Shown one piece after another: positions 20,642 to 23,600 of a DNA stretch of 64,000 bases. How positions within the stretch are numbered: the stretch's first letter is position 1; every line of letters begins with the position of its first letter. A program made the position numbers. This DNA comes from Escherichia coli O157:H7 (lineage in GTDB: Bacteria; Pseudomonadota; Gammaproteobacteria; Enterobacterales; Enterobacteriaceae), in NCBI RefSeq assembly GCF_013167455.1, contig NZ_CP038328.1, one strand, 5' to 3'.

Positions 20642-23600
20642 TACGGTTCAGGCACAGGTTTGTAGGCCTGATAAGACGCGTAAGCGTCGCATCAGGCAAT
20701 GGTGCTCGGATGCCGGATGCGGCGTGAACGCCTTATCCGGCCTACGAGATGAAGCGATGTTTTGGCCTTACGCGACCTTTTTTGCACGCTCTTCACGGCG
20801 TGCCAAATATTCAGCCACTGTTTCAATCCGTCCCAATTCTTCCTGGGTGCGCATGTTGTTTTCAACTTCCCAAAGATCAACTGCCGCCTGGAGGTTTAGC
20901 CAAAAATCGACTGTGGTATCAAAAACTTTCGCCAGACGGAATGCCATCTCAGTGGTGAGTTTACGATTGTTATTGATCAGTGCACTGACGCTATTACGAT
21001 GAACATGCAGCAACTCTGCTAACTCATTGATTTTCAAATCTAGCGGTTCCAGATATTCATAGAGAAGAATATCTCCGGGTGTCGTCGGTTTTCTTGTTGC
21101 CTGTTTCATAGTTTTTAACTGTTGCTTCCCTGTAAATAGCGATACAAGAACATACTGAATCATACAAACACATTAAACAAGTCCCCAACTCCATTTGCGC
21201 CATCCCTCCCCGCGCGCTAGCATGATATTTCACAAAGGGAGGTCGTATGGATCTGTTGTACCGGGTAAAAACGCTTTGGGCCGCGCTGCGCGGTAATCAT
21301 TACACCTGGCCTGCCATTGATATCTCTCTTCCCGGCAATCGCCATTTTCATCTGATTGGCAGTATTCATATGGGTAGCCACGATATGGCTCCCCTACCCA
21401 CCCGTTTGCTCAAAAAGCTCAAAAACGCCGATGCGCTGATCGTCGAGGCGGATGTTTCCACCAGCGATACGCCTTTTGCTAATTTGCCTGCCTGCGAGGC
21501 GCTGGAAGAGCGCATTAGCGAGGAGCAACTCCAAAAACTGCAGCACATTAGCCAGGAGATGGGCATTTCTCCCTCACTCTTTTCTACCCAACCGCTGTGG
21601 CAAATCGCGATGGTTCTTCAGGCGACGCAGGCACAAAAACTGGGGCTGCGGGCAGAATACGGTATCGATTATCAGCTATTGCAGGCGGCGAAGCAACAAC
21701 ATAAACCCGTGATTGAACTGGAAGGGGCGGAAAACCAGATTGCCATGTTGCTCCAGCTCCCTGACAAAGGACTGGCGCTGCTGGACGATACGCTGACCCA
21801 CTGGCATACCAACGCACGGTTGCTGCAACAAATGATGAGCTGGTGGCTGAATGCGCCGCCGCAAAATAATGAAATAACGCTGCCCAATACGTTCAGTCAG
21901 TCGCTGTACGATGTGCTGATGCATCAGCGAAATCTCGCCTGGCGGGATAAATTACGCGCCATGCCGCCGGGGCGATATGTGGTCGCGGTCGGTGCACTAC
22001 ACCTGTATGGAGAAGGGAATTTACCGCAAATGTTGCGCTAAAAAAATGGCCAATATCGCTATTGGCCCGTCAAAGAGGAATTTCATTTTTTTATTATTAT
22101 GCCGTCACTTTAAGCGACGGTGTAACTCGATTGTCGCTCAATCTCACCATCCTGCCAATACTCTTAGGCAAGATGACTCTTTTTTTTGGACCGCCATCAG
22201 GCGTATGCTTGCTTCGTTTTTTTGTTTAAGGCAGGAAAATTACCATGACACCCGCAGTTAAATCACTCGAAAAAAACAAGATTTCGTTTCAAATCCATAC
22301 CTACGAGCACGATCCGGCTGAAACCAATTTTGGCGATGAAGTCGTCAAAAAATTAGGTTTGAATCCGGATCAGGTCTACAAAACGCTGCTGGTCGCAGTG
22401 AACGGTGATATGAAACACCTTGCCGTGGCCGTTACGCCGGTCGCAGGTCAACTGGACCTTAAAAAAGTAGCAAAAGCGCTGGGTGCCAAGAAAGTTGAGA
22501 TGGCCGATCCGATGGTCGCGCAGCGTTCGACGGGATACCTGGTTGGGGGGATTAGCCCACTGGGGCAGAAAAAACGTCTGCCAACGATTATCGACGCCCC
22601 CGCACAAGAATTTGCCACTATTTATGTTTCCGGCGGCAAGCGCGGACTGGATATCGAACTGGCGGCAGGCGATCTGGCGAAGATCCTCGATGCCAAATTT
22701 GCTGATATCGCCCGCCGCGATTAAGCATTGTGCCGGATGCGAACATCCGGCACTTTCGGATTACTGCCAGCTCACCTCACCTTTCGGTTCATAAACACTC
22801 ACATCCAGCGGCGAGCTTTTCTGGATATACGCTTTCAGCACTTCGGCATCAATAAAGCCGGTATTCACATAGCCCGGTTTGTTATCAAGGCGCGGATATC
22901 CATCACCGCCGGTGGCATTGAAGTTTAATGTCGCCATACGGTAAGTTTTCGCTGGATCGACCGGTTCGCCTTTGATTTTAAGGTCGTTCAGTTTGCCGTC
23001 TTTCGCCACAAAGCTAACGTTGGCAAATTGCGGGTAGGCACCTGAATCTGGCTTCATCTGCGCGACGGCGGTCAGGTAATCAATCACCTCTTTACCGGTC
23101 ATGTCGGCATACACCACCACATTGCCGAATGGCTGCACTTTCAGCACGTTTTTATAGCTGATATCGCCTGCTTCGATAGAATCACGAATTCCGCCTCCGC
23201 TCATCACCGCAAAGTCGGCACCAGTGCGATCCATTTGTGCTGCCAGAATCAACCGCCCCATATTGGTCTGTACAAAACGCACTTTGTCACGATCGCCTTC
23301 CAGACGACCATTGGTTTCGCCTATTTTCACTTCCAGCTGCGCTTTGCCTTTGTTCTGGAACGGCGATAACAGCGAGATCATTTGCTGGTTTTCAGCGATT
23401 TCAGGGGTGTACAGCACGCGCTCGCTTTTCCCGTCTTCCCAGGTCACTTTCTTCTTCAGGTTCACCGGAATCAGCTGGTAGTTAACCATTTTCATTTCGC
23501 CGTTGCGAAACTCAAAGTCGGCCCGACCAACGTACTTGCCCCACTCATGCGCCTGTACAATCCAGATGCCGTTTTGTTGATCCGGTTTGCATGGCGTACC

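What the first reader, a model, noticed from the sequence alone, without database searches (positions are those of the whole stretch)
22040..22123. ChiX sRNA immediately abuts the ybaP stop codon on the opposite strand
The ybaP-ybaK spacer carries, on the minus strand, a sequence I recognise as ChiX with its own terminator; its 3' T-tract overlaps the ybaP stop codon, a compact convergent arrangement. No protein ORF covers it.
Basis: partly seen in the sequence, partly recalled or inferred. Interest (0 to 1): 0.2.

Follow-up and report, generated by a model that had tools for sequence, protein, structure and literature searches.

The report
ChiX small RNA gene, already known
This is the well-studied E. 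coli small regulatory RNA ChiX, identical to the K-12 copy and in its usual place tail-to-tail with ybaP, so the finding is correct but ordinary.

Summary
The observation and the interpretation both hold. Window 22040-22123 (minus strand) gives a full-length Rfam sroB/ChiX match of 82.1 bits against a gathering score of 44. It is 84/84 identical to the annotated K-12 gene chiX (b4585). The 84-mer occurs once in 5,422 of 5,426 complete E. coli genomes.

All expected parts are present:
- a sigma-70-like promoter
- a 5' hairpin
- an A-rich AAN linker
- the seed UCCUCUUUGACGGG
- a GC-rich terminator hairpin with a U7 tail

The seed is perfectly complementary over 12 nt to the Shine-Dalgarno region of the K-12 chiP leader. 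It is also complementary over 12 nt to the chbB-chbC spacer, the known decoy.

The last two U of the tail are encoded opposite the AA of the ybaP TAA stop (22039-22041), a 2-nt overlap. K-12 is annotated the same way, and published Term-seq places the ChiX 3' end on that base. The overlap is old: it is exactly 2 nt in 87 of 116 Enterobacterales species examined.

The genes overlap rather than abut. A mechanical 94-aa plus-strand ORF does cover the RNA, but it is unannotated and not conserved.

Novelty: already known. Interest: low.

The parts
22040..22123 (-). chiX (sroB/micM/rybC) small RNA gene, 84 nt
   Evidence: Rfam RF00368 at 82.1 bits, full length. Identical to K-12 b4585. Present in 5,422 of 5,426 complete E. 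coli genomes.
22130..22158 (-). Sigma-70-like promoter of chiX: -35 TTGGCA (22158-22153), 17-nt spacer, -10 GACAAT (22135-22130). The start A at 22123 is 7 nt downstream.
   Evidence: Consensus scan. The same TTGGCA-17/18-GACAAT was found upstream in 56 of 115 species loci, all of the Enterobacteriaceae-type sequence. Function is inferred, not shown here.
22102..22120 (-). 5' hairpin (ChiX nt 4-22)
   Evidence: MFE fold. All 94 distinct orthologous 5' segments fold into a hairpin of at least 5 pairs with differing stem sequences; mean MFE -10.6 against -4.9 kcal/mol for shuffles.
22080..22101 (-). A-rich single-stranded linker CAUAAUAAUAAAAAAAUGAAAU with AAN/ARN repeats (ChiX nt 23-44). [quoted passage not shown]
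   Evidence: Five in-frame A-R-N triplets. ChiX is described as a class II sRNA that uses the proximal and distal faces of Hfq and a strong AAN motif (PMC7987339). Binding was not tested here.
22066..22079 (-). Seed UCCUCUUUGACGGG (ChiX nt 45-58)
   Evidence: 12-nt perfect complement of nt 45-56 to the K-12 chiP leader at -19 to -8, which covers the Shine-Dalgarno AAGAGGA. 12-nt perfect complement of nt 47-58 to the chbB-chbC spacer; extended duplex -28.1 kcal/mol, equalled by 0 of 1000 shuffles.
22048..22067 (-). Terminator hairpin GGCCAAUAGCGAUAUUGGCC (ChiX nt 57-76)
   Evidence: Terminator scan and MFE fold. A-U to G-C compensatory changes at two stem positions across species.
22040..22046 (-). 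U7 tail. The last two U (22041, 22040) are encoded opposite the AA of the ybaP stop codon.
   Evidence: Sequence. In K-12, Term-seq places the 3' end at 507287, which corresponds to window 22040, labelled 'primary chiX, antisense ybaP' (PMC7815308 supplementary file 1).
21247..22041 (+). ybaP (TraB/GumN family protein, 264 aa), convergent with chiX; stop TAA at 22039-22041
   Evidence: ORF list; annotation of identical or near-identical records.
22245..22724 (+). ybaK (Cys-tRNA(Pro)/Cys-tRNA(Cys) deacylase, 159 aa), divergent from chiX
   Evidence: ORF list; annotation.

Best explanation
The locus is the gene for ChiX, an Hfq-dependent trans-acting small RNA of Enterobacterales.

Shown here from sequence:
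- It has its own sigma-70-like promoter.
- The 84-nt RNA has a 5' hairpin, an A-rich AAN linker, a single-stranded seed (UCCUCUUUGACGGG) and an intrinsic terminator with a U7 tail.
- The seed is perfectly complementary to the ribosome-binding region of the chiP (chitoporin) leader and to the chbB-chbC spacer.

Taken from the literature, not tested here:
- ChiX is made constitutively and, with Hfq, pairs with the chiP leader. This blocks translation and promotes Rho-dependent termination within chiPQ, which keeps the chitoporin off when chitosugars are absent.
- When chitobiose induces the chb operon, the chbBC spacer pairs with ChiX as a decoy and triggers its decay, which releases chiP.
- ChiZ, a fragment derived from the chiP leader, is a second sponge.

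The 2-nt overlap of the U tail with the ybaP TAA stop is the standard arrangement, inherited across most Enterobacterales. I read it as compaction of two convergent genes rather than a separate mechanism. That last point is an inference.
For: - Rfam sroB full-length match at 82.1 bits against a gathering score of 44.
- 84/84 identity to K-12 chiX b4585, with the same annotated 2-nt overlap with ybaP.
- The 84-mer occurs once per genome in 5,422 of 5,426 complete E. coli genomes, at 99% identity or more in 5,011.
- Promoter-like and terminator-like sites sit in the expected places.
- The fold gives two hairpins flanking an open linker and seed, z = -3.9.
- 12-nt perfect seed complementarity to chiP -19 to -8; the seed-only duplex is -21.0 kcal/mol, reached by 1 of 1000 shuffles.
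- Seed complementarity to the chbBC spacer gives -28.1 kcal/mol, reached by 0 of 1000 shuffles.
- The chiP leader is present in 5,424 of 5,426 complete E. coli genomes.
- ybaK-chiX-ybaP synteny holds across about 115 Enterobacterales species, with compensatory changes in the terminator stem and a 5' hairpin kept despite sequence turnover.
- Mechanism from papers: PMC4098024, PMC7815308, PMC7987339.
- Term-seq 3' end at the last U of the tract, among the strongest signals in the surrounding list.
Against: I found nothing substantive against it. Four limits apply.
- Expression, Hfq binding and regulation were not and cannot be measured here.
- The targets chiP and chb lie outside the 64-kb window, so their presence in this particular genome is inferred from their near-universal presence in E. 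coli.
- The cross-species set was gathered with an exact 19-nt seed pattern. It therefore cannot be used to argue that the seed is conserved.
- The species in that set are related, so the counts are not independent events.
Confidence: 0.97

Rival explanations
1. The hairpin at 22048-22067 is shared. Besides terminating ChiX, it terminates or stabilises the 3' end of the convergent ybaP mRNA as a bidirectional terminator. That dual use would be why the overlap of stop codon and U tract is conserved.
For: The overlap is exactly 2 nt in 87 of 116 species, and 96 of 116 show some overlap. On the plus strand the same region can fold into an extended A7/U7-closed hairpin followed by AUUAUUAU, total -30.9 kcal/mol, z = -3.1.
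Against: The terminator scan found no plus-strand terminator there, because the stem is followed by CGTCAAAGAGG, not a T run. In the Term-seq tables, ybaP appears only as the antisense label of ChiX-strand 3' ends, and no ybaP-sense 3' end is listed. About 20 species have gaps of 3 to 230 nt between the stop and the U tract. Conservation among related species can be plain inheritance.
Confidence: 0.12
2. The convergent overlap produces cis-antisense regulation. ybaP read-through RNA would carry a full anti-ChiX sequence, or ChiX read-through would run antisense into ybaP, so each gene modulates the other.
For: No canonical plus-strand terminator lies between 22041 and 22198. A Rho-dependent 3' end on the ChiX strand, antisense within ybaP, is listed at K-12 507468, about 181 nt past the ChiX terminator (PMC7815308 supplementary file 2). 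One RIL-seq study had to relabel 'ybaP.EST3UTR' as ChiX (PMC10954441).
Against: I found no data showing a ybaP-sense transcript across chiX, or any effect of either gene on the other. The annotated overlap of the mature RNAs is only 2 nt. The RIL-seq relabelling may be purely an annotation matter.
Confidence: 0.05
3. The stretch is coding. The plus-strand ORF 21977-22261 (94 aa), which spans the whole RNA, would encode a small protein.
For: The ORF exists mechanically, with an ATG start. Two of the three plus-strand frames across the 84 nt are stop-free in the window.
Against: It is not annotated in K-12 or O157:H7. It overlaps the ybaP 3' end and the ybaK start out of frame. No covering ORF on that strand exists in 57 of 102 species, and lengths vary widely in the rest. 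The sequence constraints fit an RNA: hairpins with compensatory changes.
Confidence: 0.01

Closest known systems
ChiX (also SroB, MicM, RybC; Rfam RF00368; E. coli K-12 b4585)
   Same: Identical 84-nt sequence, the same ybaK and ybaP neighbours, and the same 2-nt overlap with the ybaP stop. The promoter, 5' hairpin, AAN linker, seed and terminator are all the same.
   Different: Nothing in the RNA differs. The host is an O157:H7-type E. coli rather than K-12: the 401-nt surroundings are 100% identical to strain PV15-279, and a nearby island is absent from K-12. PGAP did not annotate the RNA in that O157 record.
MgrR, the other well-characterised class II Hfq sRNA
   Same: It works alike. It is an Hfq-dependent trans-acting repressor with a U tail for the proximal face and AAN motifs for the distal face (PMC7987339; PMC6239178 is listed, abstract only).
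   Different: It is an unrelated sequence with different targets (eptB, ygdQ) and different regulation (Mg2+). It is not the same family. I did not compare the sequences here.

Membership tests
ChiX / sroB (Rfam RF00368) | Covariance-model score at or above the curated gathering score, over the full model | tested here: met
   82.1 bits against 44; model positions 1-83 of 83; E = 1.8e-10
ChiX / sroB (Rfam RF00368) | Sequence identity to the type gene, E. coli K-12 chiX b4585 | tested here: met
   84/84 identical; 270 of 271 identical with flanks included
ChiX / sroB (Rfam RF00368) | Genomic position between ybaK and ybaP: divergent from ybaK, convergent with ybaP | tested here: met
   ORFs and annotation. 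The same synteny is seen in nearly all of about 115 Enterobacterales species.
ChiX / sroB (Rfam RF00368) | Seed complementary to the chiP leader at its Shine-Dalgarno region | tested here: met
   12-nt perfect complement, ChiX nt 45-56 against K-12 chiP -19 to -8. chiP lies outside the window, so the K-12 sequence was used. The leader is present in 5,424 of 5,426 E. coli genomes.
ChiX / sroB (Rfam RF00368) | Complementarity to the chbB-chbC spacer (decoy or trap) | tested here: met
   12-nt perfect complement plus an extended duplex of -28.1 kcal/mol, reached by 0 of 1000 shuffles; K-12 chb sequence used
ChiX / sroB (Rfam RF00368) | Intrinsic terminator with a U tail, and expression as a discrete RNA of about 84 nt | tested here: inconclusive
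   The hairpin plus U7 is present. Expression cannot be measured here. For the identical K-12 sequence, Term-seq places the 3' end on the last U.
Class II Hfq-dependent sRNAs | Binds the Hfq proximal face through the U tail and the distal face through AAN motifs | not testable with these tools
   The sequence features are present: U7 and five A-R-N triplets in the linker. Binding is known only from the literature on the identical RNA.

The most novel reading that the evidence does not exclude
The exact 2-nt embedding of the ChiX U tail in the ybaP TAA stop is kept in 87 of 116 Enterobacterales species. The most novel reading is that this is selected rather than merely inherited. The hairpin might serve both convergent genes. 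Alternatively, ybaP read-through, which would carry a full anti-ChiX sequence, or ChiX read-through, which is stopped by Rho inside ybaP, might couple the expression of the two genes.
Probability: 0.08. Interest if true: 0.3.

Novelty: already known. Interest (0 to 1): 0.06.

Why it matters
It matters little beyond correct annotation. ChiX is a textbook Hfq-dependent small RNA: a constitutive silencer of the chitoporin gene that is switched off by an mRNA decoy. This copy is identical to the studied one. The practical point is that automatic annotation of the identical O157:H7 sequence carries no chiX feature, so the scan correctly recovers an RNA gene that a protein-centred annotation leaves out. 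The survey of stop-codon and terminator overlap across species is a small descriptive addition, not a discovery.

Tried and rejected
- MAFFT plus RNAalifold on 107 distinct orthologues recovered only the terminator stem, because the 5' third is too divergent to align across families. I replaced this with per-sequence folding of the 5' segment against shuffles.
- RNAduplex with full-length ChiX against the whole chiP leader gave an implausible long-range structure that was only weakly better than shuffles. I replaced it with a search for the longest perfect complement and a seed-only duplex.
- I looked for further copies of the 12-nt seed core or its complement in the 64-kb window. There are none apart from chiX itself.
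- One script failed because a newly fetched locus file was not yet available; it was rerun.
- Small-protein reading of the plus-strand ORF: considered and rejected.
- Using the cross-species set as evidence that the seed is conserved: rejected, because the set was selected on the seed.
- One of the 120 pattern hits, L060 from a Lindowbacteria MAG, has no terminator or synteny. I treated it as a chance match.

Full report
**Observation**

The minus strand of window 22040-22123 reads ACACCGUCGCUUAAAGUGACGGCAUAAUAAUAAAAAAAUGAAAUUCCUCUUUGACGGGCCAAUAGCGAUAUUGGCCAUUUUUUU. A scan of the whole window against Rfam 15 at gathering thresholds gave six matches. One is RF00368 (sroB RNA, the Rfam name for ChiX) at exactly 22040-22123 on the minus strand. 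It covers model positions 1-83 of 83 and scores 82.1 bits against a gathering score of 44, with E = 1.8e-10.

The flanking ORFs are 21247-22041 on the plus strand (264 aa) and 22245-22724 on the plus strand (159 aa). Identical or near-identical E. coli records annotate these as ybaP (TraB/GumN family) and ybaK (Cys-tRNA(Pro)/Cys-tRNA(Cys) deacylase).

The ybaP stop TAA occupies 22039-22041, and the seven A at 22040-22046 encode the U7 tail. The RNA and the stop codon therefore share two bases (22040-22041). The only refinement is that the two genes overlap by 2 nt rather than merely abut.

**Identity**

A 271-nt alignment with K-12 MG1655 is identical except for one base inside ybaP, so the 84 nt of the RNA are 84/84 identical to chiX b4585. 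K-12 annotates chiX at 507204-507287 and ybaP at 507286-508080, which is the same 2-nt overlap.

The 84-mer is found exactly once in 5,422 of 5,426 complete E. coli genomes, at 99% identity or more in 5,011 of them. The 401-nt surroundings are 100% identical to an O157:H7 strain, PV15-279. The PGAP annotation of that record carries no chiX feature.

**Anatomy**

- *Promoter.* A sigma-70-like site (TTGGCA, 17 nt, GACAAT) lies at 22158-22130 on the minus strand, so the RNA's first base is 7 nt after the -10 hexamer.
- *Terminator.* A terminator-like hairpin lies at 22067-22048 and is followed by AUUUUUUU.
- *Fold.* The predicted fold has a 5' hairpin (nt 4-22) and the terminator hairpin, with an open A-rich linker and seed between them. 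The energy is -24.1 kcal/mol, z = -3.9 against dinucleotide shuffles.
- *Linker.* CAUAAUAAUAAAAAAAUGAAAU holds five in-frame A-R-N triplets.

**Pairing with known targets**

The targets are outside the window, so I used the K-12 sequences.

- ChiX nt 45-56 (UCCUCUUUGACG) is a perfect 12-nt complement of the chiP leader at -19 to -8, which includes the Shine-Dalgarno sequence AAGAGGA. The seed-only duplex is -21.0 kcal/mol, reached by 1 of 1000 shuffled leaders.
- ChiX nt 47-58 is a perfect 12-nt complement of the chbB-chbC spacer. With flanking pairs the duplex is -28.1 kcal/mol, reached by 0 of 1000 shuffles.
- The chiP leader is present in 5,424 of 5,426 complete E. coli genomes.

**Relatives**

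The hits cover Escherichia, Salmonella, Citrobacter, Enterobacter, Klebsiella, Kluyvera, Serratia, Yersinia, Rahnella, Pantoea, Erwinia, Hafnia, Proteus and others. One hit, L060 from a Lindowbacteria MAG, lacks a terminator and synteny and is a chance match.

tblastn with the window's YbaP and YbaK shows ybaK upstream and a convergent ybaP downstream in nearly all loci. In the Proteus locus that holds both genes (L091), ybaP lies about 2.3 kb away on the other side of the RNA. In the other Proteus locus (L065) only a fragment of a ybaP-like match is seen.

The distance between the ybaP stop and the end of the T tract could be measured in 116 loci:

| Arrangement | Loci | Notes |
|---|---|---|
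| 2-nt overlap | 87 | the arrangement seen in the window |
| 1-nt overlap | 4 | TGA stops, in Pantoea |
| 17-nt overlap | 4 | Phytobacter/Kosakonia-like genomes; TAA is lost and ybaP reads five more codons into the terminator hairpin |
| 87-nt overlap | 1 | L026 |
| Gap of 3-230 nt | about 20 | mostly Pantoea, Erwinia, Buttiauxella and Rouxiella |
| Not adjacent to ybaP | 1 | Proteus L091, counted as a 2,365-nt 'overlap' by the script |

Structure is maintained across species. Two terminator-stem positions show A-U to G-C compensatory changes, in 17 and 4 of 107 distinct sequences. All 94 distinct 5' segments fold into a hairpin of at least 5 pairs although the stem sequences differ. Their mean energy is -10.6 kcal/mol against -4.9 for shuffles.

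Two caveats apply. The set was selected on the seed and on the GGCC of the stem, so it says nothing about conservation of those bases. The species are related, so these are counts of species, not of independent events.

**Mechanism**

Shown here: the gene has the sequence signals of an independently transcribed, intrinsically terminated small RNA. Its open seed matches the chiP ribosome-binding region and the chb decoy.

Taken from papers:
- ChiX constitutively represses chiP. Chitobiose-induced chb mRNA titrates ChiX and triggers its decay (PMC4098024).
- ChiX pairing increases Rho-dependent regulation of chiP, and ChiZ, a fragment of the chiP leader, is a second sponge (PMC7815308).
- ChiX is a class II Hfq sRNA that uses the proximal face through its U tail and the distal face through AAN motifs (PMC7987339).
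- Term-seq in K-12 places the ChiX 3' end at 507287. This is the last U and corresponds to window 22040. It is labelled 'primary chiX, antisense ybaP' and has very high read scores (PMC7815308 supplementary file 1).
- A Rho-dependent 3' end on the same strand is listed at 507468, inside ybaP on its antisense side (supplementary file 2).

**The overlap itself**

I read the overlap as inherited compaction of two convergent genes.

The alternative is that the hairpin also serves ybaP. Two observations favour this. The overlap is widely kept. The plus strand can form an extended A7/U7-closed hairpin followed by AUUAUUAU.

Three observations count against it. The stem is not followed directly by a T run on the plus strand, and the scan finds no plus-strand terminator there. 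No ybaP-sense 3' end appears in the Term-seq tables. About one species in six has a spacer instead of an overlap.

The next plus-strand terminator-like site is at 22198-22211, just before ybaK. A ybaP read-through RNA would therefore carry an anti-ChiX sequence. I found no evidence that this matters.

**Coding alternative**

A mechanical ORF at 21977-22261 (plus strand, 94 aa) spans the RNA. It is unannotated. No covering ORF on that strand exists in 57 of 102 species. I reject this reading.

**Wider window**

Window 15532-64000 is collinear with K-12 513896-465053 at 97.6-98.8% identity. Window 1-15531 has no K-12 counterpart at this site. In O157:H7 it corresponds to a TolC-family gene and a giant BapA-related adhesin, SiiEA.

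**Verdict**

The finding is correct and is already known. It is the standard chiX gene in its standard position. Interest is low.

Noticed in passing
window 1-15531: This stretch has no counterpart at this site in K-12. In O157:H7 PV15-279 it is a TolC-family gene annotated as frameshifted, plus the giant BapA-related adhesin SiiEA annotated with an internal stop. In the window the TolC-family ORF at 13867-15222 (minus strand) is an uninterrupted 451 aa. An adhesin ORF of 1461 aa lies at 9379-13764 (minus strand), with highly repetitive sequence continuing towards the window start.
   Followed up: partly
window 22198-22220 (+): A terminator-like hairpin, CAGGCGTATGCTTG followed by CTTCGTTTTT, lies about 30 nt upstream of the ybaK start codon at 22245. 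It could end ybaP read-through or be a ybaK leader structure.
   Followed up: no
window 20665-20742 and 27802-27879: Rfam naRNA4 (REP-derived) matches. The first, in the copA-ybaQ spacer, scores on both strands.
   Followed up: no
window 35802-35866 (-) and 52500-52596 (-): The DnaX programmed-frameshift element (96.8 bits) and 4.5S SRP RNA ffs (68.1 bits) are both where K-12 synteny predicts them.
   Followed up: no
L041, L048, L066, L094 (17 nt); L026 (87 nt): In Phytobacter/Kosakonia-like genomes the ybaP TAA embedded in the ChiX T tract is replaced by CAA. The ORF then continues into the ChiX terminator hairpin, and the new stop lies in the hairpin loop.
   Followed up: partly
L002 (NZ_AP018488.1, O157:H7 PV15-279), locus 1642-1846: The RefSeq/PGAP annotation of the sequence identical to the window has no chiX or other ncRNA feature between ybaP and ybaK. 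The curated K-12 record does have one.
   Followed up: yes
L065, L091 (Proteus): A ChiX-like seed plus terminator is present but not next to ybaP. In L091, ybaP lies about 2.3 kb away on the other side. The 5' part also differs strongly from the enterobacterial type.
   Followed up: no
K-12 507468 (+), corresponding to about window 21859 (-): A published Rho-dependent 3' end on the ChiX strand lies about 181 nt past the ChiX terminator, antisense within ybaP. This suggests that ChiX read-through is stopped by Rho (PMC7815308 supplementary file 2).
   Followed up: no
window 31348-31402 and 39096-39154: There are two breaks in the alignment with K-12 where the window's spacer is shorter: about 54 nt against about 158 nt near adk-hemH, and about 58 nt against about 228 nt near mscK-ybaM. 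These are probably repeat-element polymorphisms.
   Followed up: no
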